This document shows positions 6,896-54,846 of a stretch of 64,000 nt of DNA, piece by piece. Made by a program: the position numbers and the translations under genes. The notes under the pieces were generated by a model. The model searched no databases, was not told the origin of the DNA, and saw only the letters and a program-made list of their open reading frames with translations. Origin of the DNA: the human T2T-CHM13v2.0 reference genome, Homo sapiens. The number at the start of each line of letters is the position of its first letter. Within the stretch, counting starts at the first letter, position 1. The DNA is taken from NCBI RefSeq assembly GCF_009914755.1, contig NC_060929.1. The stretch is one strand, 5' to 3'.

Positions 6896-7775
<880 letters not shown>

Positions 7776-8204: not shown

Positions 8205-9148
8205 AAAAAACTACCAACAGTGAAACTCCCAGGCCCAGTTGACCTCACCACTGAATTTCATCAACCATTAAAGAAGGAATCCCAATTCCAAAAAATAGCA
8301 AATGGGGGACCACTTCCTCTCTCCCAACTCATTTTATGAGGCAAGTATTACTCTGATACCAAAACCAGACAAAGACATCACAGGAAATGAAAATTACAGG
8401 CCAATATCTTTATAAATATGGATGCAAAAATTCTCAACAAAATATTACCAAACCAAATCCAGCAACATTTACAATGACCAAGTGAGATTAATCCCAAAAA
8501 TGCAAGGTTGACTTGACTTCCCAAAATCAATTAATGTAATACATCATATCATTAGAATAAAAAACTACATAATCATCTCAATAGATGCAGAATAATCATT
8601 TGACAAAATCCAACACCCTTTTATGATAAAGACACTCAACAGACTAGGAATAGAGAAGAATTTCCTCAACTTATTAAAAGACATCTGTGAAAAAACATAG
8701 CCAACATCAACCTCACTGGTGAAAGACTGGATGTTTTGTTCCTAAGATCAGGAACAAAATGAAGAGATCCACTCTGACCATTTCTATTCAACATTGTACT
8801 GGAGGTTACAGGCAGGGCAATTAAGGAAGAAAAAGAAATAAAAGACATATAGACTAGAAAGGAAAAAGTAAAATTATCTTTATTAGCAGATGATATAACC
8901 TTGTATGTAGGAAATCCTAAGGGATACACTAAAAAACTATTAAAACTCGTAAATGAGTTGAGCAAGGTTGCAATAAACCAAAATCAGTTGTATTTTTATA
9001 CCCTTGCAAAGAAATATTCAAAATGAAGTTAAGAAAGCAATTTAATTTATAATAGCATCTTAAAGAATAAAGCACTAAATTTAAGAAGTAAATAATTTTA
9101 AGAAGACAAATAAATTTAAGAAGACAAAGACTTGAAACTGAAAAATAC

Positions 9149-10550
9149 AAATACAGCCAACTGATCTTCAACAAAACAAACAAAAACATAAAGTGGGGAA
9201 AGGACACCCTTTCCAACAAATGGTGCTGGGATAATTAGCAAGCCAAATACTTACAGACAACTGATCTTCAAAAAAGCAAACAAAACCATAAAATGGGGCA
9301 AAAGACATCCTACTCAGCAAAGGTGCTGGGATAATTGGCAAGCCACATGTAGGAGAATGAAACTGGATCCTCATCTCTCACCTTATACAAAAATCAACCC
9401 AAGATGGATCAAGGACTTAAACTTAAGACCTGAAACTATAAAAATTCTAGATGATAACATTGGAAAAACCCTTCTAGACACTGGCTTAGGCAAGGATTTC
9501 ATGACCAAGAGCTCAAAAGCAAATGCAATAAAAACAAAGATAAATAGCTGGGACCTAATTAAACTAAAGAGCTTTTGCACAGCAAAAGGAGCAGTCAGCA
9601 GAGTAAACAGACAACTCACACAGTGGGAGAAAATCTTCACAATCTATACATCTGACAAAGGACTAATATCCAGAATCTACAACAAACTTAAACAAATCAG
9701 TAAGAAAAAAAAAAAGAACCCATCAAAAAGTGGGCTAAGGACCTGAATACACAATTCTCAAAAGAAGATATACAAATGGCCAAGAAACATATTAAAAAAT
9801 GCTTGACATCACTAATGATTAGAGAAATGCAAATCAAAACTACAATGCGATATCACCTCACTCCTGCAAGAATGGCCATAATCAAAAAATCAAAAAACAG
9901 TGTATGTTGGCATGAATGTGGTGAACAGGGAACACTTCTACACTGCTGGTGGGAATGTAAACTAGTACAGCTGCTATGGAAAACAGTGTGGAGATTTCTT
10001 AAACAACTAAAAGTAGAACTACCATTTGATGCAGCAATCCCACTACTGGATATCTACCCAGAGGAAAAGAAGCCATTATTCTAAGACGATACTTGCACAT
10101 TAATGTTTATAGCAGCACAATTCACAATCGCAAAATCGTGGAACCAACCCAAATGCCCATCAATCAATGAATGGATAAAGAAACTGTGGTATACATATAC
10201 AATGGAATACCACGCAGCCATAAAAAGGAATGAATTAACAGCATTCACAGTGACCTGGATGAGATTGGAGACTATTATTCTAAGTGAAGTAACTCAGGAG
10301 TGGAAAATCAAACATCATATGTTCCCACTGATATGTAGGAGCTAAGCTATGAGAATGCAAAGGCATAAGAATGATACCATGGACTTTGGGGACTTGGGGG
10401 GAAGAAAGGGAGGAGGGCGAGGGATAAAATACTACAAATAAGGTTCAGTGTATACTGCTTGGGTGATGAGTGCACCAAAATCTCACAAATCACCACTAAA
10501 GAACTTATATAACCAAATACCACCTGTACCCCAATAACTTATGGAAAAAA
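9149..10550 (+). mobile_element. 5'-truncated L1PB-type LINE-1 (ORF2 C-terminus and 3' UTR)
   Basis: ORF fragments 9357..10345 match ORF2p C-terminus ([23 protein letters not shown]); 3' UTR GGTTCAGTGTATACTGCTTGGGTGATGAGTGCACCAAAATCTCACAAATCACCACTAAAGAAC. Confidence 0.88.
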
Positions 10551-13813: not shown

Positions 13814-16800
13814 TATATCTATATCATGCCCGTCTTATTCTACCATATTTACTATGGTTTTTTAACTTAATATCCAGTAGTATATAAATCCTTTAACTTT
13901 GTTCTTTTTCAAAACTGTCAGAGTTATTCATTTTAGAATCAGCTTATCAAGTTTTAAGAAAGCTTCCAGGGGTTTGAGATTGCATTACATTAAAAAACAA
14001 AAAGAAAAAACCGGCTTGGATTCTGATTGGGATTGCAATGGATCTAGAGATCAGTTTGGAGGAAACTATGTTGTCTTCCAAATCTACATATGGTATGTCT
14101 TCCCATTTATTTATGTCTTTCTCTCAGAAATATTTTGGAGTTTTCTCTGTAGATATCTCTTACATCATTTCTTAGGATATATTCCTAAGTGTTTTCCATG
14201 GTATTGCAAAAATTATCATTTTAAAATTCTTCACTACATATAAACATGATTGATTTTTGTATTTTGATCTTGCCAAATTCATTTACTAATTTTAACATTG
14301 TATCTGTACTTCTAAAATTTTATACATACATAATCATGTCATTCATGAACAATGACATTTTTATTTATTCCTTTCCAATCCTTATAATATTTATTTTTCT
14401 TGCCATATAGCACTAGCTAAGACTTCAGTACAATTCTGAATAGAAATGGTGAGAGCTGGCACCCTTTTTTCCCTATATCAGGAAGGAAAACTTTCAATAA
14501 TTCAATATTATGTTTGATGTTTACATAATATTTTTGTAGATATTCTATATGAGTTTTGGGTTATAGCCTTTTATTCCTAGTTTTCTAAGAGCTTTCATAA
14601 AAATGTGTTGATTTTCTATCAATGCTTTTTTTCTTTGTTTATTGAGATAACCATATGGAGGAGGTTTTTTGTCTTTTATTCTATGAATTTTATTAATGTG
14701 AATTTTATTGACTTGTTAAATGTTAAACTAATCTTGCATTCCTGGAATAAACCCAACTTGATTGTGGTATATTATCAGTTTTATAGATAGCTGGATTAGA
14801 TTTGCTAATATTTTAATTCTGGATTTTTACAACTATGTGTATCTGTTTTGATTGCCTTACCAATGTCTGCAGTGGATTAGCAGGCATCTCCTTTCACGAT
14901 AGGTTCACATGACTGAGCATATAACACCCAACAGGATGTAGAGGAAACACATCGGAGTTATTAAGACATACAACGCCCAGAAGGAGGGATACAGCTTGCC
15001 CCAAGGGACCACACAGATGGCACATGGGGTGAGAGAAACAGGACAAAACAAAGCAGCCTTACAAGCCTCGAAGGATAGGGCTTCCCACAGATACCTTTAA
15101 TTGGGTACTTTGAGTAAAAGGTAGTGGGAAACTAGGTCAGAGCTGACAAAGAGGAAGATGCAGAGGGGAACTGAGAGTGAGCTCTGTTAGATAAAATAGC
15201 TGGCAGCAAAGGAGTCTTGCTCAGGACAGCAAGGGGAAGAGCAGCTAGCAGGACTAGTGGCCTGTGTGATAAGGGAGGAGTCCTCCCTTGGAACAGGTCT
15301 ATATTTCTCCCTTTCCCCTTGACAGATGTCGTGGCAACAACTTATGCTAAGTAAAATATTTTCTCACTACAGTATTAATGAGAGAGATTGGCTTGTATTT
15401 TTCCTTTCTTGTATTGTCTTTGTCAGGTTTTGTTAGAAAGGTTATGCTGGTCTCATAGAATGAGTTGGAAAGTGCTCCCTCTTTTTTTGTTTTCTGGAAA
15501 AGTTTATGTAAGACTTGGATTACCTAATGTTTGGAAATATTACTTTCAATATTAATGGAAATAAATGTTTGGAAGAATTCACCAGAGAAGTCATCTGAAA
15601 CTTTATTTTTCTTTCTGAGTGGTTCTTCTAATTAGACTCAATTTCTTTAATAGAAAATAAAATTGAATTTTTTATTCCTCCCTGATTCCATTTTCTTAAG
15701 TTTTTTCAAGCAATTTTCACTTTTGTTGAAATTTTCAAATGTTTAGGTATACATTTGTATTTAAGGTATAAATATATATAACATCCTCCTTATTGCCTTT
15801 TCAATAATTAGGATCTATAGCAATGTCTCATTTTGTTACTGATATTGGTCATTTGTGCCTTCTCTGCTTTTTTTCCTCATCAGTATTAGCAGGAGTTAAT
15901 CAAACTTATTAGCCTTTTCAAAGAACAACTTTTGGCTGTATTTATTTTCTCTATTGTACCTATGTTTTCTGTTCTCTTGCTTTCTGTTCTTATTTTTATT
16001 ATTTCTCTTCTTCCATTTCAGGTTTAATTCACAGATCCTTTACTAATTTCATGAGATAGATACTTAATTTGATGGTAGCCAGCCTTTCTTTTTTCCAATA
16101 TATGTGTTTAGAGCTGTAAGCATCCCATTAAGCCTGGCTTTCGCTGTATCTTGTAAGTTTTAGTCTGCTGTATTTTTATTATTGCATAGCTCAATGTTTT
16201 CTAATTTCCAATTTGATTTCTTCTTTTACCCTTAAGTTATACAGAAAATGTTATCCAATTTCCAAATGTTTGGGGGTTTACTCGTTTTTCTGTTATTGAA
16301 TTCTACTTTAATTCTGCAACGGTCAGAAAACACTTTGTAAGATTTCAGTCATTTGATATTTGCTGAAACTTGCTTTATGTTCCACCATATGATCAATTTT
16401 AGTAAATGTTCCATATGCACTTAAAAGAATGTACATTCTAGGTTGTTAAATACTGATTGTAATTATATCAATTGAATTAAAATTGTTCAAATCTTTTATA
16501 TTTCTACTTATTTTCCCTGCCTCCTCTATTGGTGACTGTGAAGTATACTAATCTACAATTATGATTATGAAATTATCTATTTATATTTTTATATGTTTTA
16601 TTTGATATGTATTGAGGCCATGTTATTAAGAATATGCAAATTTAGAACTATGTGGGATTGGCCTTTCATTATGAAATGAACTTCTTTGTCTTAGTAAAGT
16701 CTACTTTATCTGGTATTACTGTCACCAGGTTTCTTGTGTATTACATTTACTTGAAATATCTTTCCTTATCCTTTTATTTTCAGTCTTTCATGTCCCTGTA

Positions 16801-21730: not shown

Positions 21731-23776
21731 GAAAATGGTTTTAACCTCCTGGATCTCTTGAAAGGGGAGGGGACCCAAAGATGTCTGCAGACCACTCTTT
21801 GAGAACCACTGCTCTAATAAGCCTATAATTCTTTGTATAGGGAGGGAAGGTAATGGCTGAGGGGAGAGTGGAGAATAACTCTTTAAAAACAATCCAGAAA
21901 ATTGAGGAAAAGGTACTTTGAATATTAATGAGTGTTTAATTCATTTAGCTTTCCTTACAGTTTGACTGATTTTAGATAGTTTCTTTATTTAGTTCTCTAC
22001 CTTGTTTCTGGCCCTGATCTGAGTTTGGCCCTCAGTAAGTAGTTTCATCAGAGTCGTGATTAGGCAAACTGTGGATGAAATTTCACAGTTCTGCCTATAG
22101 CAGCAAATACCTATGAGGGCTTGAGCCCCTTCAGTAATCTAAAGTAAGGGGAAATCTCATGATCACCCAATATCATATACCTCTTTACGTATTTTGTCTG
22201 TACTAGAATGTACACTCCTTGAAATAGATTTGTTTTGTTCACTGCTTTATCCTCAGTTCCAAGGGTGGTACCTGACTCATATATAGGCACTAAACAAATA
22301 TCTATTGAATGAATGAATGAATGTACCCCATATGAACCTACACAAAGAATAAGCTTAAAATAATGTAACATTATTTTTCAAACACATCCAGATGAGTGTT
22401 TTGAAATAATTTAACTTAGAGAGGTTACAATCATTTTCTAGTGATGCTGCAACTGTCATTCAGAGTGTTTTTTGAACATCAGAGAGGAGGTGATGGGAAA
22501 TACGCCACATTTGGATTCAGAAAGACTTTAGTTAGAATCCTGGTCCCAGCAATTACCACTGAAATGAAATTGGGCAGTGACTTAACCTCTCAGATAATCT
22601 CCTCAATTGTAAAACAGAGAGAGAAGAAACTATCTCATAGAGACATTGTGGGAATAAAATTAAAGGAAACTACATTTGTGATTGTATCTAGCACATTGCC
22701 TAGCAAATAGAAAATAACAAGCACAGGTTAAATGCTAGTGTCTAGACAGTTGGTATTGGGCTATCATACTTCTATTCCATCTACCTTTGATAACAATATC
22801 AAAAGTTGACCCTCCCCAGTTATCAGTCCATATGCTTTGGATAGAGCTTCAGACCTAGGTTTATTGGCCTGAGCCTAAACAATCAGTGCATCATTTCCCT
22901 GGACATACTACTCCCTTGTACAAGATGACCACATATCTCAGTCAGAGCCAATGACAGTCAATGGAATTCTTGTTGGGAATCTGGGGGAAAAGGCTCTCTC
23001 TTTTCCACTAGACTTAAACCTGAAAAGATGCAGACAGGAGCTGCTTCAGCCATCCTAGAACCACAGAGAAGACCCTGCCTGAGAACAGAACACAAACAGC
23101 ACAAGTCAGAGGTGAGAGACAAAGAAGGAAGAACTAGGCTCAGTGAACAACACTTGAGCTCCAATCAAGTAATGCCTGAAGCCAAGCTGGCCTTTGAAGT
23201 TATGTGAATCAGTAAGTTTCCTTTTTTTTTTTGTTTTTTTTGTAGCTTAGCTTGAGTTGAGTTGTCTGACATTAACAATAGAAAAGTACAGCCTGATGCA
23301 GTATTTTTTGCTTGTTCATAGGCTCAACCTAGATTTGCACAGACAATTATGGTTCAATGTTAACGCTGCTGCTGAGAGCTGAAACATAAAGCCAAAGTCT
23401 GTCCTGAAGTATTTTAAATTCCTATGGCCTTAAGGAAGCCACAAGTCAAGGAAGCCAAAGTCAAGGAAGCCATAAGTCAAGATTCTCATAGTATTTGGTT
23501 AATATTTAGATCAGGCATTCCTGACAAAAGAAAATACAGTAATTTCAAACTTGAAGTCTTTAGACCTTTAGGGATGTGCAATTACTAATATTAGAAATAT
23601 TAGGAATAGCTTGAGGCACTTCAAGCTACTACTAATATTTCTAAAAAGTCTAAAACCAGTTGCATATGTTCCTTTAATGAGGTTAACTAAAACATACGTT
23701 TTTTTTTTTTCTATTGATAGAATTATGTCTACTCCATGCATTTACAATGGTTATCTCTTGCTAATCGGAAGCTCTT

Positions 23777-46121: not shown

Positions 46122-49100
46122 TAAACTGAGTTGCCCCACACTAGTCAGCAATGTAGAGTTAATCATTACTAGAATGGTCAGCATTGGGAAATAACTTCAG
46201 ATATTAGATGAGGAAATGGAAGTGCACAACTGCTAAGTGACTGAACTAAGAACACAGTCAGGTAATGGCTGATCAAGGACTATAACTATGTTTTCCAAAC
46301 CATGCATTTCTTCTGGGTCCCCAAATATAGCAGAGTCATGACTGGACAAGGATTGTTCTTCTGTAACTAAAAAACAAACAACCTCCCTCCCTGAGAAGCA
46401 ACGCTCTCCTAACCTGAACCCAAAACAACCCCTATCAGAAGCTCAAGGTCTTCCTCCGGAGTTCTTCTGCCTAAGGAGAAAATTCTCATCATCACTCTTC
46501 AAATCTAAAATGGCTTATGGCATACAACCAGTTCTCAAAGAAACCACTAGGTTTAAAATGAAAATGAAGCTCTTAAGTCTTCCAACAGGGAAATCTAAGA
46601 TAGCTGGCTTCCTGGCAAGTGTGTGCTCCTCCCTCCATTGTGGGAGACAATCCAGTCACTGGAGTTTCTAAAAGTGGCATATTAACTCTTCCAAGATAAC
46701 AGGGCATCATTCACTAAATTACCTTTTCGAAGACATTACATGGTACCCCAGTTCTTTGGAAAAGGTAATTAGCTTCCCATGGGTGACTAGTTTACTCCAA
46801 GTGAGCACTGTGCTCATCAGAGGACAAGGATGATCTCTTTTTGTGGGAATAAAAACATTATCTTGCTTGTCAGGAGTGATTTATTTTTTACCTTAATAAT
46901 GATGTAAGCCCTTTACGATACATATTTTTAATTGGTAACTACCCCACCATGATAATAGATCATAGCACGTGCAATAAGCTGGGAACTTTAACATCAACAC
47001 ATCTGACCTAAATTAATCTTAATAAGCATCTATTGCACACCTAATATGTGTCAGAGTCTATGCTATATATTGGGGAATTACATTGCTCAAATGTATCCAT
47101 TTGGGGAATATCAGTGATACTAAAACACTCTATCAGATTATGAATGGCTATTAAAGTGAGTCTGGCAAGTGGCCCACCATGTCTTGCCTTGGTCATTAGA
47201 GATTTGAATCCGGTTAATGGCTCCACATTTAAGAGGTTAGTGGAGAATTTAGTAAGGATATATATAAACACAAGAAACATACTTTATAGATCTGAAAATA
47301 AGAGCCACAAGGAAAGGTCAAAATAATTCCAACAGAATAAAACAAAAGTGGAGAATAAAATCCTAAAGGATGACCTTGTTATCCTATAAGACCCAGCTCC
47401 TCCAGGAAGCCTGGCCAGGAATTCTACCCACAATGATCTCCTGCTTCTCTGAGTTTCCATTGCATCTGAGATATAGATCAGAGTACTTAGCACTTGATCA
47501 ATCCATTATAAATTGACTTGTACGATTTTCTTTTTAAAGTATATTTGTCTTGTCTCTCCAATTATATGATAAGCTCCTTGAAGAGCTTGGATGTTATATA
47601 TTTCTCTGGTACCCCCACCTACAGGCTTTGCCAACAAGCACAAAAAAACTGTTGACATATATAAGTAGGAAAAACATGTTAAATGAGAAAACTAAGAGTG
47701 TTTATCACTGAGAAAATAAGATTATGGCAGAGATATGTTCTATTCACTGGCTATTCATGTGTTCCACATTTGCCAGTCCTCTTGCAATTAGGGGAAGCCT
47801 TATAATAATTTCTTAGGTACTGGACCATGAGTAGAAGTTTCTGGACCAAAGCATAAAGAACCAGTTTAAACTTCTAGTTTTTTCTTCCTCCCACAAAGAC
47901 CGTGGAAACCCCATAATGGGGTGATTAAGTAACAACATGAAACCTGCTTGGATCACTGGGTCACCACATGAAGAAGAGCTCTCCTAGAGATTTACTTTAC
48001 TCACAGTCACATTTGTGTGAGCAAGAAAAAAAAAATCCCTGGTTGTGTTAAGCCAGAGATGAATTTTATCTGGTACCATAGCATAGCCTAGGGGTATTAC
48101 ACTGACTGATATTAACAAAAGAAGACTAAAAAGAAAAATCATTTCAGTAGTAAGAGCTGTGACAGAAAGTCCTTCCTGAGGTAAGACTACGGAAGAAAGA
48201 ACTAGGAGACAAAAGACAGACTAGGCTCAATGAAAGGAAGAACTCTGGCAGGCCAGTAAAAGACATCTACCTTTCATTCAAACAGAGCCCACAAGTCCAC
48301 TTGGTGAGAAATAAAAAAGGGACAACTGTGGTCAAGAAATTTGAATGAGACGATTTCAAGGTCCCTTCAAATGCTAAGATTTTATGATCTATGTTTGGCA
48401 ATGGATTCCTAATATATGGAGGCCAGAAAAAGGACATGCAGTTTATGCTGAGTTGTAATTCTTTTAATAACATACAGAAGCAACATCAAAGTATCTCCCT
48501 GTAAAATCTTGCAGGGACAGACAAGAAAAGCACCAAAAGACCCAAGGATCCTCTCCCTTCCCCTGTCCATCTACAATGCCACACCTTTCAAAGTACTCCT
48601 AGGGCTATTTGACAAGTTTATTGCCACCTCAGCTCAGAGCTTGTGTCACAAGAAGATGACTTCATTGATAAAGATTTCTCACCGGATTAAGAGCCTTCTC
48701 GGTGGCTGAAATATCTTGAATTAACCTCTGGAAAGAGGGTGAGGTTCCGTAGGACAGGAGTGTTTCTAGACTCTTGAAACCATGTGTTATTTTGATGCAG
48801 TTATCATGTCCTATCAAAGTATCTCTTGTTTAAATTACAAGGGTGGACTGTTAAATTTCTAAGTAAAGATATTTCGTTTTATTCCCCGAAAATATTTTAA
48901 CAGTAGGGGAAATGTCTATATGTTACATACACAAGGGTAATGCTTAATGACCTGAAAATGTAACTTAAAGAATGATCTCTGCCACTTACTAGGGATATGA
49001 CCTTTGGCAAGTTACTTAGCCTTCATGACTCTCAATTTCTTCCTCTATACAACAAGGGTTAAAATATCTACTTCATAATGGTGCCATGAGTTAAATGAGA

Positions 49101-49776
49101 TAATGAGCTGTGTCAACTAAAAAATGGAGTTCAAATGTAAGGTACTGGAGGGAAAGTAATGAAATAACACTCTCTAAAAATGTTATTTTTGAAATCAATG
49201 TTGGAGTACCTAAGCATTAAGATAATAGACTAAGATAATTAATAAAGCAAGGGTAGCAAAAAGACCAGTTCAGCTTCACTTAACTCATTCAGAATTGTGC
49301 AATTAGCAAATCTAAAAAGAACTTATTTTAATTTCAGTATATCTATGTTTTGTTTTATAATTTAATATTTTTATTTTTAATTTCATAAAAATCACATATA
49401 ATCTTTTCCATGTTAAAAAGCATCTACAGTTCTTAATCTGACCTTGAGTTTATCTTTAATAGATTCAATAAAGACTAGGAACGAAAGTATATAAAGTCTT
49501 ATGACAGTTCAGTGAAAGATGCAAAGAACATATACTATATATGTCATGTGGGTTAATTATATATTTCCTGGTACTTGTGAATTACTTCAACACAGAACTG
49601 AGAGGGATTGTGGCAGCGTGAGCAACTGCAACAAGTGTAACTCAAATAAAATGGGTCTGAAGATGGAAACTGAGATATATGGGATATTTCATCACGTGGA
49701 TGGAAGATGCAGCTTAACGGTAATAACAACTAATTATGCCTGCTTAAAGACAAACAACTTATGAGCGCAGGGCTTG

Positions 49777-49891
49777 GAAGGCCGAGGGTGTGAACTGCGG
49801 TCCCCATGCCATCACTTGTATGGCATGTATGCCATCATCAAAATCAAAAGATGGCTCTTTTTTGTCAGGTCAAGTGAAAAACTCTGTACAC
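49777..49891 (+). repeat. Cluster of three short dispersed direct repeats of nearby unique DNA
   Basis: 49777-49805 vs 52874-52902 (26/29); 49806-49831 vs 50921-50946 (25/26); 49871-49891 vs 51498-51518 (21/21). Confidence 0.92.
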
Positions 49892-52479
49892 AGCTCATAC
49901 CCAAAACTCCTTAATGGCACGTTTTAGTAAGTCTTCTAAATCCATGCCTTGTTTTGATAGTGTACACATTAAAAAAAGCCAAAGGCATTGTTCTGTGTCT
50001 CTCTGTAATGACCACATGCTAAATCGGCCATGGTTCCTATACCAAAAGCTCTGCACTGAGGAGACTTAGCAGAAAGCCGGGCAGGAGGTGCCCCTCTTTG
50101 TTGCAGCTTTCATTTTTAAAATAAGTCATAATTTCTGCATTGGATACAAAGATGGGTTTACAGCTATTAGCCATCATATTAATAATTTAGAAAATACATG
50201 CCCAATCACTGACGTTCTTTCAATTCCCTATGAACACAGCTGCAACCCACATTAGAAGTGAGGGTGAATGGATATTTTTCAGATGAGATATTTGGGCTGA
50301 ATTATTAGGGTAGCCTGTACTACAAAATTACTAATAAACATTGCTTCTGGCTCAATTCAGCCTGAACTCAGTGAACCTAGCCAATGGTGACAAATCAAAA
50401 ACTCTGAAATGCCCAGTGAATGAATCTAACTAATCACGGAACCCTGTAGGAAGTAGATGCCAGGATTAATGAGCCAGTGGTTTCACCATGCCATGCTGTT
50501 ATTTCTTCACATAAATGCCCTCAGATGAGATTATCTTTATGTCATGAAAAGGAGAAAAGGAAGGTTACATTATTTCAACTGACAGGTTAACTACTGCCAT
50601 TACTAGAATACACATATTTGTGGGCTAAGTTTTTTCTTTATCCTAAAAATTTAAATGTAAGTTCCACAATATAAATTAAAAACACATTTTCATTTTTGGG
50701 AAAAGCTGTCATTGGGGGCACCAAACATAAATTGTCCCAAAGTTAGAATTTTCCTCTTTATTTCCTCTGCATGTCTATATGCACATCTACCGTGATTTAC
50801 CCAAACTGCTCTGCATGCTGTTTTGTATTGAGTATCTAACATCATCTTCAGCAGGTTGCATTCCCATATCATATTTCCTCCACCATCAACAAAAGGTAAT
50901 CTAAGTGCAAAATCATTACTATACCATCACTTGTATGGCATGTATGATATTTAGTACCAATACTGAGGAAAAAATAAAGATACAAGGATGAACTTGTATA
51001 TTAAAATAAATCAATCATATGGTTACATCATAATGGATTGTTTCCAGCTAGCATGTGGTGACAGTATTCAATATCAAACAGGCTACTCAGCAAAAAGTAC
51101 AATTATTAGAGGCAGGACATCTAGCATGTTGTACTTAAACTACTTTGTGTTCTGATATTATTCAACTTTATTGTCTTTATTCCCTTATTAAATTTACTTA
51201 ATTATTATTAGATCTTTAACAATTTTGAGTCAGAATTGCTGTTAATGATGAGTAAAAAAATTGTATGAAGCATTATTCTGTTGTTAGATTTTTCTCCTTC
51301 AAAAAGCAGAAATCTTTCAGGCTTGTGATTGAGGTTCTTATTCTTCTCTTTTTATCTTTGCTAAACCGTCAACCTTAACAATTCAGGCCTGCTTGCCTTC
51401 CCTTAACCTAATGGCGTATATGACTTTAAAATGTTCAGGATTCTGAATACAAAAATCTATTATTGCTATAGAAACAAATATTAGCCCAGAGTCAAGCCAA
51501 GTGAAAAACTCTGTACACTTTACTATAATATTGATAAATAACCACTACATTATGAAATATAAGTATCTTTGAAAGCATCTATCACTTGAGTTGATTTGCA
51601 ACTTCTCATCAGTGTTCTGAGTTGGCCCATTTTTTTCCAATGAAAGATCCCATTTCCCTTGCCTTTGAGAAATACAATTTTTAAAGATTCCATTTAGCAT
51701 CCTTTATTGCATTCCTACATCATAAAGTTATGCTTTATAGCAGCATAAAAAGCTGTAAAATTGGCATCCTTGTAAACAACATTCCATGAGCACTGGTGAA
51801 GCAATCCGTAATTTGTACTGATCTCTTAAATGTGACTTGAGATTACAGTATCCACGATTTCAATTTTTTTTAAAAAAAAGCACTAACATAAAACAAGCGA
51901 GAATATGATGAAATGCAAAAACAAGGAAAAGTATTTTTCATTAACTCATATTTTAGAAATTTGGTGGTTGTGTGCTGCTGAATTCTTGGATGAGTTCTCA
52001 AATACAGAAATGTTCCGTTCTTGTATGAAATTCAAAATGAGCATGTTTTCTCTTCTTTAATATTTTAATGTACTAAAAATAGTCTTTAGGAAAGTGTATA
52101 ACTGAAATATTCTGTGAACCCACCCACCAGTTTACCTCTAATTAAAATTCCTAAGGTAACATGAACAGATTTACTTTATCATTAAAAATCATAGCTTTTT
52201 GTTCTCATCTCTGAGGAGATTCCATTGTGTTCTCTTAGTTGAGTAACGATTACAACAGCTCCTCAAATTCACATGTAGCCCAGCTGTATTGTATTTTAGC
52301 AGGAGGGTATTTTTTAGGGTTTACACTCTGAGGCAACCAAATGAGAAGTCTTCCCGTGGGAAAAGGGGTGCCCTCTCAATGCCTATAATGACCATTAAAT
52401 TTCAAACCACAAGATTGATTTCGGTTAGCCTTCCCAAGGAAGCCTGTGATATCGATTTGCCTCCAAGTTTAAAACACAC

Positions 52480-53275
52480 CGCAAACCTTCCCCTCGGCCG
52501 ACCGAAGAAACGGCATTTTTTTCCTACTCCTTTGGGGCAGTCCCCTGAGCACGTGCCTGAAGTCGAGGTTAGTACGCAGCCAGCAGGGACCCTGACAGGA
52601 AACCAGAGCAGCCCCGGGGTTGGGGGAGCCCTGGTAGGTGCTGGTCGTCCCGGACACGCCTCTTCTGGAGAAGCGCGTTTGTCCCTTACTTGGGAGGTCC
52701 CGGGTATCTGAAGCGGATCCCGGGTCTGGGGACATGAAGGGGCGCCGTGGCCTTAGGGAAGGCCCCAAAGAGGCCTAGGCCCCGGAGGAGGCAAGAGCCG
52801 CGGCCTAGCTTCCACCGCGTACCTGGGGCCAGACACGGCTGGGGCGGCGCCGGAGAGCAGAACTCCAGGCTCTGAAGGCCGAGGGTGCGAATTGTGGTCC
52901 CCTCCCACCCACGGCCTCCCCATCACGCGCACGCAGCCCGCGAGGGGCGCCCTCCGCGCCACTGCCCCAGGGACACCGTTCATCTGAGGAACTCTCGCGC
53001 CCTGCGTTTCGTGCCGACAGCGACGCTCGGAGTCCCACCTGGGAAACCTGGGTTGGCCCGGAAACCTCGGGAGGCTCAGAGCTTGCGTGAGGCGCTCGCG
53101 GCGCCCCAGCATGCCGCCCCGTCGCGGAGACCTCACCTTGCAGCCCAGAAACCGAACCCAAGCCCACTGCAGGGCGAAGGGCCCACGCGTTCCAACTGGC
53201 GCGAATATAACCATTCCCAAGACCGGCCCCTCCCCTCCCCCCACGAGACCCCTCCCGCCGTTCAAGGTCACACCA
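52480..53275. promoter_or_regulatory. CpG island just downstream of the OTP 3' end
   Basis: Abrupt GC/CpG-rich block between AT-rich flanks. Confidence 0.85.
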
Positions 53276-53291
53276 AAACCCATCATTCTCT

Positions 53292-54846
53292 ATATCACAT
53301 ACTGAAAATGATTTTATTTTATCCATTTACATTTAACTTGATATAAACTTGTCCGGAAAAGTCAAATAATATGCTTTATATTAGCTCAAACATTTATTAA
53401 GAAAACCGAATTCCATAAATAAACACAGACATTAAGTTAAAACATATCACAAATTGACCAGTATGTAACAAGAATGCTTTATCTACACAAAACATCCTAT
53501 TTCACATATTTGTTCATTCTTAGAAAGCGCTTCTGTTCTCTGGGTTTGGATTTGACCAGCACATGCAGAAAGAGCTGATTGTGTTTCTCTGTACAAAGTT
53601 GCAGGGTTGTAGATGTCCGAGTGCCCCCATCGGCTGCCAGCAGGTGGCCGAGGGGCACGAGGGACGACAGGACCACCACAAAACAACCAAGGGCACAGAG
53701 CAGCGAGAAGACAGAAACAGAAAAGGAAGCAAACAAACCCCAGTCCTGAAGGATCCAGAAAAGAGATGTGGCTTTTGCTTTTACAAAAGAAAATTTTGCT
53801 TACACGTTTATTTTATTCTTCCTTATAAAGACTTATCAAAATGGGTCAGATCACCTCTTCCTCGTCACATGACTGCTTTAGTCTACTCCAGCCACCCAAT
53901 CCACTGTCACGTTCCTCCTGAGAAGCCTTCCCTTCTACACTCTCACACAGTTGTGCTTAAGAAAATGAAAATAAGATAAAATAAAAATAAAAGCGTTATC
54001 TTGCAAGCCAAGAGAGGGCTGCACGGATGTGACTGGGTGGACTGGGCAAGGGTAGCGTGGTGGGAGAGGAAAGAAAGACAGGAGCTTGGAGAGTACAAGG
54101 ATAAATCAAATCATATCAGTTGGGCCCTCAGATGAGGCGGTTGGTAGCAATGCTTGTCCTCCTTTAAGACAAAAATCCCTAACATTGTGCTGTCCCTTGA
54201 ACACGTCCGTGTGTGACCTAGGTGCACCGTGTCTGTGCGCGCGCGTGTGTAGCGTCTGAGCGTGAGCGAGAGTGCGAGTGTGTGTGTTTCTGCCCACAAA
54301 CCAGTCCATTGGTGTCTGATTTCAGATCCTGAGTCGACTCCCTGGTACGTAAAATGGCGGGAAGGATACTTTTTGCCGGGCGCGGGAGGAGGGTCGCGAA
54401 GTGTGGGGAAAGAGGGGACCGGAGGGGAGGCGGCGGGCGAGGGGGGTCGTAGGCGTCGCGTCGAAGGTGTGGGTGGGAACGCCGCCCGTCAGAAGGCCAG
54501 GAGGAGGGCGCGAGCACGGCCAGCGCAAGCAGGGAGGCCAGGGTGGCGGGAAGGGTGGGCTGAGGCGCTGGAGACCGAGCCGAGGGCGCAGCTGGGTGGG
54601 AAGGGAAGAGGGGCGGCCGGGAGACGGGGGACCGCGGGCGATCGAAATCAGGCGGAGGGGAGGCCTCGCGGGCTGGGGCTTGGGGTGAGCCCGAGCGAGT
54701 GGAGGAGAGAGGCGAGGACGAAACGAGACGGGGCGAAGGCCGGGGCGGGACGGGGCAGGGCGCCGGGGTCCGGGTGCGCGCCGGAAGGGCCTCGGGGCGG
54801 CCCCCGGGGCGGTGCTGGGGGCGGAGCGGGCCGGGGCGCGGCTGCA
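53292..54846 (-). other. OTP: OTP 3' UTR (about 1.55 kb)
   Basis: Lies between TAA stop (54847) and distal poly(A) signal; C-rich proximal half, AU-rich distal half. Confidence 0.75.
53313..53318 (-). terminator. OTP: Probable OTP polyadenylation signal AATAAA
   Basis: TTTATT on + strand; GU-rich element GGGTTTTGGTGTG ~30-45 nt downstream on the minus strand. Confidence 0.7.

What the first reader, a model, noticed from the sequence alone, without database searches (positions are those of the whole stretch)
49777..49891. 115-bp patchwork assembled from three nearby unique sites plus fold-back pieces
Seen: A 49777-49805 GAAGGCCGAGGGTGTGAACTGCGGTCCCC matches 52874-52902 (26/29, all C/T differences). 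B 49806-49831 ATGCCATCACTTGTATGGCATGTATG abuts A exactly and matches 50921-50946 (25/26). C 49871-49891 CAAGTGAAAAACTCTGTACAC matches 51498-51518 (21/21). All three are same-strand but out of order (donors +3.1, +1.1, +1.6 kb). Between B and C the sequence restarts B through an ATG overlap (ATGCCATCA at 49806 and 49829), stutters TCAAAA twice, then gives GATGGC, the reverse complement of GCCATC. B also forms a hairpin, CATGCCAT-7nt-ATGGCATG. None of it looks like a known repeat. Inference: a fixed germline scar of serial template switching (polymerase-theta end joining or FoSTeS/MMBIR). A is GC-rich in AT-rich surroundings, so the CpG-island copy is probably the donor.
Basis: partly seen in the sequence, partly recalled or inferred. 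Interest (0 to 1): 0.8.

Follow-up and report, generated by a model that had tools for sequence, protein, structure and literature searches.

The report
Old three-donor templated-insertion scar near OTP
A 121-base block downstream of the human OTP gene is stitched together from copies of three unique sites 1.1 to 3.1 kb away, most likely an old scar of error-prone break or replication repair and not a functional element.

Summary
Three same-strand pieces sit within 121 bp and match sites 3.1, 1.1 and 1.6 kb downstream, out of order:
- A: 49771-49805
- B: 49806-49831
- C: 49864-49891

They are the only significant hits when 1.1 kb around the block is compared with the window or with 194 kb around it.

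Genome-wide, each piece occurs exactly twice at up to 3 mismatches: once in the block and once at its nearby partner. This is therefore not a dispersed repeat.

No other homology joins the two regions, which rules out a decayed duplication.

The block is probably the recipient:
- A abuts B to the nucleotide.
- A is 69% GC in a 39-44% GC setting, while its partner lies in a CpG island.

The copies differ at 4 of 76 core positions, or 8 of 89 extended, and 7 of those 8 are transitions. The event is therefore old and not an assembly artefact.

Best reading: one repair event with serial template switching. Tract length (26-35 nt) and template distance (kb) fit MMBIR-like or long-range cross-break copying better than canonical polymerase-theta scars. 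Capture of about 30-nt break fragments is the main rival.

No outgroup or pangenome data were available, so dating, polarity and fixation remain inferred. This is a known kind of event, of modest interest.

The parts
49771..49805 (+). Piece A (core 49777-49805): copy of 52868-52902
   Evidence: 26 of 29 in the core and 30 of 35 extended. Genome-wide, 2 matches at up to 3 mismatches. GC is 0.69 in a 0.39-0.44 setting.
49806..49831 (+). Piece B: copy of 50921-50946; it abuts A with no gap
   Evidence: 25 of 26, with 23 exact. Genome-wide, 2 matches.
49805..49827 (.). Perfect 8-bp stem with a 7-nt loop. The partner site has only an imperfect version.
   Evidence: The DNA fold is -7.2 kcal/mol, against -1.5 at the partner. 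The two extra pairs use the last base of A and the one base where B differs from its partner.
49826..49837 (+). Restart of the beginning of B, overlapping the end of B by TATG
   Evidence: 11 of 12 to 50918-50929. The 9-nt repeat of 49806-49814 is reached by 31 of 1000 shuffles.
49832..49863 (+). Middle stretch with no identifiable template. It holds TCAAAA twice (49838-49849) and GATGGC (49850-49855).
   Evidence: There is no match longer than 10 nt within about 6 kb on either strand, and none better than E = 3.4 in 194 kb. It may be native sequence, slippage or untemplated synthesis.
49864..49891 (+). Piece C (core 49871-49891): copy of 51491-51518
   Evidence: 21 of 21 in the core and 26 of 28 extended. 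Genome-wide, 2 matches.
50921..50946 (+). Partner (inferred template) of B
51491..51518 (+). Partner (inferred template) of C
52868..52902 (+). Partner (inferred template) of A. It lies inside a CpG island about 400 bp beyond the annotated 3' end of OTP.
   Evidence: Over 52500-53300, GC is 0.658 and CpG o/e is 0.77.
49760..49766 (.). Left arm of a 7-nt inverted repeat that brackets the block
   Evidence: TATGAGC is the reverse complement of 49893-49899. A flanking inverted repeat of 7 nt or more occurs at 70 of 8858 control positions in the window. This was noticed after the fact.
49893..49899 (.). Right arm of the bracketing 7-nt inverted repeat

Best explanation
The block 49771-49891 is a mutational scar and not a working element.

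Proposed event: in one old germline repair event, a free 3' DNA end at about 49770 was extended by a polymerase that copied three short stretches of the same chromosome region downstream. The order was first the CpG-island site at 52868-52902, then 50921-50946, then 51491-51518. The end dissociated and re-annealed between copies, and was finally rejoined at about 49892.

All three templates lie on one side of the block and in direct orientation. That is what is expected if the end copied the single-stranded partner strand exposed across the break, or a nearby fork.

The re-start of B through a TATG overlap, the TCAAAA stutter, and the perfecting of B's imperfect palindrome would be further aborted or fold-back rounds of the same event.

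Shown: composite structure, uniqueness, lack of other homology, base-composition contrast, divergence. Inferred: polarity, single event, order of switches, polymerase.
For: 1. Three independent significant matches crowd into 121 bp. All are same-strand and all point to one 2-kb zone. Nothing else matches in 64 kb or 194 kb.

2. Each piece has exactly two copies in 3.1 Gb at up to 3 mismatches, and the reversed control gave 0. The flanks and the partner region are single copy at the sensitivity.

3. A ends where B begins. Three separate exports from the block would have to share that breakpoint by coincidence, whereas a mosaic recipient explains it directly.

4. A is 69% GC with 2 CpGs in sequence of 39-44% GC and CpG o/e 0.35. 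Its partner sits in a CpG island.

5. Homology stops abruptly at each piece edge. No further similarity exists between 49300-50400 and 50.9-53 kb.

6. The restart of B overlaps B's end by TATG, which looks like microhomology-primed re-annealing. Both readings of that site in the block carry G where the partner now has A.

7. In the passages I read, multi-template germline templated insertions are reported in humans, including one event built from three templates (PMC8421209). Repeated rounds of direct cross-break copying and inverse hairpin copying are described for polymerase theta (PMC7165422).
Against: - No outgroup or population sequence could be consulted. The pre-event state, any accompanying deletion, and the direction of copying are all inferred.
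- Junction microhomology is 0-1 nt at A|B and cannot be read at the outer junctions.
- The 32-nt middle has no template. A+B and C could therefore be two separate events with native sequence between them.
- Tract lengths and kb-scale distances lie outside what the passages read describe for polymerase-theta scars.
- The fold-back elements are not individually significant.
Confidence: 0.6

Rival explanations
1. Fragment capture. Three short double-stranded fragments of about 26-35 bp were released by closely spaced double cuts in the 50.9-52.9 kb zone, for example SPO11 double cuts in meiosis. They were ligated end to end into a fourth break at about 49770-49892 by end joining. The cut sites were then restored from the homologue or sister.
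For: - The piece sizes of 26, 28 and 35 nt are close to the predicted ~32-bp peak of double-cut fragments.
- Such fragments were seen inserted at other breaks: inserts of 15-349 bp, median microhomology 1 bp, two deletions carrying two inserts each (bioRxiv 10.1101/2020.06.23.168138, passages).
- A and B abut bluntly.
- One partner lies in a CpG island.
Against: - It needs four breaks or double cuts spread over 3 kb in one cell.
- Random ligation would give all three pieces in direct orientation only 1 time in 8.
- It does not explain the TATG-overlapped restart of B or the stutter.
- The recalled human PRDM9 13-mer has 0 of its 10 window matches between 42.5 and 54.5 kb. This counts for little, because the event is old and such motifs turn over quickly.
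Confidence: 0.12
2. Several separate small events. A+B(+restart) and C were inserted at different times, or short gene-conversion-like patches accumulated, with native sequence between them.
For: - The 32-nt middle has no template.
- Divergence differs between pieces: A 3 of 29, B 1 of 26, C 0 of 21.
Against: - Unique short local pairs are rare. Only one other was found in 194 kb at E <= 0.01, so two independent hits within 60 nt are unlikely.
- The differences in divergence rest on tiny counts, and two of A's three differences are CpG transitions.
Confidence: 0.1
3. Remnant of an old local duplication or triplication of about 2 kb (50.9-52.9 kb). Most of it was later deleted or diverged, leaving three islands.
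For: - A|B equals the end and the start of a unit running 50921-52902, which is what a tandem junction would look like.
- All pieces are on the same strand.
Against: - The chromosome order is A, B, C, then B, C, A. Two tandem copies cannot give this order. A triplication plus several exact deletions would be needed.
- At the 5-9% divergence of the pieces, any retained flanking homology would be obvious, and none exists (next hit E = 0.34).
Confidence: 0.05
4. Reverse polarity: the block is original, and its three parts were copied out to the three downstream sites.
For: Nothing here polarises B and C directly.
Against: - It requires three events whose source breakpoints coincide at 49805/49806.
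- The GC-rich A fits the CpG island and not the block's setting.
Confidence: 0.05

Closest known systems
MMBIR/FoSTeS-type templated insertions (MMB-TIs), including germline multi-template events in humans (PMC8421209, passages read)
   Same: Short copied tracts from several nearby templates are strung together at one site. These are described as accumulating as germline variants over evolution when they do not disrupt genes. One reported germline event has three parts copied from three templates.
   Different: By design, that survey detects inverted copies of templates within 100 bp. Here the copies are direct and lie 1.1-3.1 kb away. There is no copy-number change or larger rearrangement, and microhomology is minimal at the one junction that can be read.
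Polymerase-theta end-joining templated insertions (TINS) (PMC7165422; PMC11541566; PMC4490562; passages read)
   Same: Direct repeats copied across the break from the other resected end. Inverse repeats made by hairpin priming. Several aborted rounds that create new microhomology. Such footprints are seen in natural C. elegans indels.
   Different: The passages describe insertions of 3-30 bp, primary tracts rarely over 10 bp, and templates peaking within about 20 bp of the break. Here the tracts are 26-35 nt and the templates are up to 3.1 kb away.
[quoted passage not shown]
   Same: An evolutionary record of template switching. [quoted passage not shown]
   Different: That model needs a reverse-orientation template within 100 nt. 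[quoted passage not shown]
Insertion of SPO11 double-cut fragments at meiotic breaks (bioRxiv 10.1101/2020.06.23.168138, passages read)
   Same: Fragment sizes of about 30 nt. Junction microhomology of 0-2 bp. More than one insert is possible per junction.
   Different: Those inserts came from hotspot centres, often on other chromosomes or inverted, and mostly in Atm-deficient mice. Here three direct pieces come from a 2-kb zone and are accompanied by a restart and a stutter.
Templated sequence insertion polymorphisms (TSIPs) (PMC5110952; only the search listing and the start of the abstract were seen)
   Same: Inserted sequence templated from elsewhere in the genome.
   Different: TSIPs are described as templated from distant regions, and one class is LINE-1 mediated. 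Here the templates are local and tiny, and there are no retrotransposition marks: I read no poly(A) tail and no splice-site-flanked pieces.

Membership tests
Dispersed repeat / transposable element fragment | Many copies genome-wide | tested here: not met
   Each piece has 2 of 2 matches local, at up to 3 mismatches in 3.1 Gb. The stretches 49300-50400 and 50800-53000 return only themselves (that tool has low sensitivity to old repeats). No Dfam or RepeatMasker was available.
Templated insertion by serial template switching (generic: MMBIR/FoSTeS/TMEJ) | Inserted tracts identical or near-identical to nearby unique sequence, from more than one template, and non-collinear | tested here: met
   Three tracts at 90-100% identity from +3.1, +1.1 and +1.6 kb.
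Templated insertion by serial template switching (generic: MMBIR/FoSTeS/TMEJ) | Microhomology at the switch points | tested here: inconclusive
   The overlap is TATG at the B-to-restart switch and 0-1 nt at A|B. The outer junctions cannot be read without the ancestral allele.
Templated insertion by serial template switching (generic: MMBIR/FoSTeS/TMEJ) | Derived state: the block is absent in outgroups that carry the templates | not testable with these tools
   No primate or mammal genomes and no pangenome are held in the tools.
Canonical polymerase-theta TINS | Templates in the immediately flanking DNA (tens of bp), with short primary tracts | tested here: not met
   The distances are 1115-3097 bp and the tracts are 26-35 nt. 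The passages give a peak within 20 bp and tracts rarely over 10 bp.
Canonical polymerase-theta TINS | Direct repeats copied from the opposite flank and/or inverse repeats from the same flank | tested here: met
   All three tracts are direct and come from the downstream side. A possible inverse 7-mer of the left flank lies at 49893-49899 (70 of 8858 controls).
Segmental or tandem duplication remnant | Collinear homology beyond the islands | tested here: not met
   The order is permuted, and no other hit better than E = 0.34 links the two regions.
Structured RNA gene | Match to a curated RNA family | tested here: not met
   Rfam over 48000-54000 at E <= 1 gave 2 weak hits, both away from the block and the partners.
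Retrocopy of a spliced transcript | Pieces bounded by splice signals in the source, collinear with a transcript, and carrying a poly(A) tail | tested here: not met
   From, the partner pieces are not flanked by AG/GT (or CT/AC) pairs. The order is not collinear on either strand. There is no A-tail.

The most novel reading that the evidence does not exclude
[quoted passage not shown] A broken 3' end repeatedly sampled more than 3 kb of single-stranded DNA exposed on the other side of the break. All templates are downstream and direct, and the end copied about 30 nt at each stop. Evolutionary scans restricted to inverted templates within 100 nt cannot see this class. Its members would record how far germline resection reached and which polymerase filled in.
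Probability: 0.3. Interest if true: 0.5.

Novelty: new member of a known kind. Interest (0 to 1): 0.3.

Why it matters
The block is a clean example, unique in the genome, of a multi-template, kb-range, direct-orientation templated insertion in human germline history. It lies next to a developmental gene and one template comes from that gene's CpG island.

Single cases like this do not change current understanding. They do show that a simple search could catalogue a class that one evolutionary survey explicitly left unresolved (PMC7954356). That search would look for abutting unique short matches to non-collinear sites within a few kb.

I found no evidence of function.

Tried and rejected
- **Dispersed repeat:** rejected.
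- **Decayed duplication:** rejected.
- **RNA gene:** no Rfam hit at the block or the partners.
- **Spliced retrocopy:** rejected by reading the partner flanks.
- **Template for the middle 49832-49863:**
  - None longer than 10 nt within about 6 kb, and none significant in 194 kb.
  - An 8-mer, CAAAATCA, lies 13 nt upstream of B's partner. That is at chance level.
- **Match spanning the A|B junction:** a 16-of-17 match at window -29493 has E = 0.23 and was treated as chance.
- **Similarity of the start of A to Alu copies:** E = 13, chance.
- **Recalled PRDM9 motif:** no site near the block or the partners. This is uninformative for an old event.
- **Control survey:** a survey of 800 kb from four other chromosomes, meant to estimate how common such clusters are, could not be run. 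The background rate therefore rests on 194 kb only.
- **Orthologue alignment and pangenome check:** no tool holds such data.

Full report
**What is there**

| Piece | Core match | Extended match (no gaps) | Offset |
|---|---|---|---|
| A | 49777-49805 vs 52874-52902, 26 of 29 | 49771-49805 vs 52868-52902, 30 of 35 | +3097 |
| B | 49806-49831 vs 50921-50946, 25 of 26 (23 exact) | none | +1115 |
| C | 49871-49891 vs 51498-51518, 21 of 21 | 49864-49891 vs 51491-51518, 26 of 28 | +1627 |

All three are on the + strand. In the block the order is A, B, C. At the partner sites the order is B, C, A. A ends at 49805 and B begins at 49806.

- ATGCCATCA occurs at 49806 and again at 49829.
- TCAAAA occurs twice, at 49838-49849.
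- GATGGC lies at 49850-49855.
- An 8-bp stem with a 7-nt loop lies at 49805-49827.

**Is it more than chance?**

- blastn of 49300-50400 against the rest of the 64-kb window gives exactly three hits better than E = 0.3. They are the three pieces, at 2e-6, 8e-6 and 1e-4.
- After adding 130 kb of flanking genome, the same three hits lead a 194-kb search. The next best is E = 0.23.
- In a self-comparison of the window, every other short local match lies in stretches that the annotation marks as repeats, or is a tandem or palindromic feature elsewhere. Between 45.7 and 56.1 kb the three pieces are the only ones.
- In the 194 kb, at E <= 0.01 and requiring both members to be otherwise unmatched, there are three pairs: B, C and one unrelated inverted pair.
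- Genome-wide, a pattern search at up to 3 mismatches finds each piece exactly twice in 3.1 Gb, once in the block and once at its neighbour. The reversed-pattern control gave zero matches.
- The 1.1 kb around the block and the 2.2 kb holding the partners return only themselves. That tool also missed the short partners, so it would not see old, diverged repeats.

**What it is not**

- *A dispersed repeat:* excluded by the genome-wide searches above.
- *A structured RNA:* Rfam at E <= 1 over 48-54 kb gives two weak hits elsewhere.
- *A spliced retrocopy:* the partner pieces lack splice-signal flanks, the order is collinear with neither strand, and there is no A-tail.
- *The remains of a local duplication:*
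  - The chromosome order is A, B, C, then B, C, A. That would need a triplication with several exact deletions.
  - At the divergence seen in the pieces, any retained homology would be detected. None is.
- *An assembly artefact or very recent event:*
  - The copies differ at 4 of 76 core positions (5.3%, 95% CI 1.5-12.9%) or 8 of 89 extended positions (9%, CI 4-17%).
  - 7 of the 8 differences are transitions.
  - Two of A's three differences are CpG/TpG, one lost in each copy.
  - With recalled primate neutral rates of roughly 0.5-1e-9 per site per year per lineage, this points to tens of millions of years. It is a rough inference from very few sites.

**Polarity (inferred)**

- The block is a mosaic whose parts abut, whereas each partner is embedded in unrelated sequence. 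Copying out of the block would need three events that share a breakpoint.
- A is 69% GC with two CpGs in a setting of 39-44% GC and CpG o/e 0.35. Its partner lies in a CpG island (52500-53300: GC 0.658, CpG o/e 0.77), about 400 bp past the annotated 3' end of OTP.
- Both copies of ATGCCATCA in the block carry G where B's partner now has A. There are two possible explanations:
  - The partner changed after the event.
  - The G was written by fold-back copying, which would also explain why the block's hairpin is perfect (-7.2 kcal/mol) and the partner's is not (-1.5).

**Mechanism**

The most economical account is a single repair event. A 3' end at about 49770 copied about 35 nt at +3.1 kb, then 26 nt at +1.1 kb. 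It re-annealed through TATG onto the start of that same template and copied about 6 more bases. It then produced about 26 nt that I cannot assign, copied 28 nt at +1.6 kb, and was rejoined at about 49892.

All templates lie downstream in direct orientation. That is the geometry described for cross-break synthesis from one resected end on the other (PMC7165422, passages), but the single-stranded DNA would have to reach more than 3 kb.

The passages I read put polymerase-theta primary tracts at rarely more than 10 bp, and templates at a peak within 20 bp of the break. Canonical TMEJ is therefore a poor fit on two defining measures.

Human MMBIR-type templated insertions are described as longer and as using several templates. 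A germline example built from three templates is reported (PMC8421209, passages). That survey only looked for inverted templates within 100 bp.

I therefore file the block under templated insertion by serial template switching and leave the polymerase open.

The main rival is ligation of about 30-nt fragments released by double cuts. This has been shown for SPO11 double-cut fragments in mouse: predicted peak about 32 bp, inserts of 15-349 bp, and median microhomology 1 bp (bioRxiv 10.1101/2020.06.23.168138, passages). It fits the sizes and the blunt A|B junction. It does not fit the uniform orientation, the restart, or the need for four breaks.

**An extra feature**

The block is bracketed by a 7-nt inverted repeat, at 49760-49766 and 49893-49899. 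An inverted repeat of 7 nt or more between 15-nt flanks occurs at 70 of 8858 control positions in the window.

Either the break fell in the loop of a small palindrome, or the right arm is itself an inverse copy of the left flank made in the last repair round. I noticed this after the fact, so it is only suggestive.

**Limits**

- No outgroup genomes, pangenome or repeat library were available.
- Insertion versus replacement, the branch of origin, fixation, and whether A+B and C arose together are all untested.
- The 32-nt middle may be native sequence.
- The 9-nt restart is reached by 31 of 1000 shuffles and the 8-nt inverted repeat by 377 of 1000.
- A wider control survey could not be run.
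- Supplementary figures of the papers cited, which show individual events, were not seen.

**Verdict**

It belongs to a known kind of mutational scar. It is unusual in having three kb-range direct templates and about 30-nt tracts. There is no sign of function.

Noticed in passing
window 49760-49766 and 49893-49899: A 7-nt inverted repeat brackets the block exactly. Comparable flanking inverted repeats occur at 70 of 8858 control positions. It could mark a small palindrome at the break site, or a final fold-back copy.
   Followed up: partly
L012, about 7723-7754 and 9270-9301 (window -22277..-22246 and -20730..-20699): This is the only other otherwise-unmatched short local pair in the 194-kb neighbourhood: 32 nt, 90.6% identical, inverted, 1.5 kb apart.
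   Followed up: no
window 8772-8801 and 14426-14455: A 30-nt inverted match at 90% identity, 5.6 kb apart, outside the stretches listed as masked repeats.
   Followed up: no
window 23591-23644: A 54-nt imperfect palindrome, 85% self-complementary. It lies next to a masked repeat that starts at 23766.
   Followed up: no
window 54534-54558 (- strand): Two adjoining matches to the recalled PRDM9-type 13-mer lie inside the OTP 3' exon region. The window has 10 matches against about 1 expected from shuffles, and several of them fall within stretches listed as masked repeats.
   Followed up: no
window -29493..-29477 (L012/L013 region, within the annotated RPS2P24 span): A 16-of-17 match to 49802-49818, which spans the A|B junction. 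E = 0.23 in 194 kb, so I judged it chance.
   Followed up: partly
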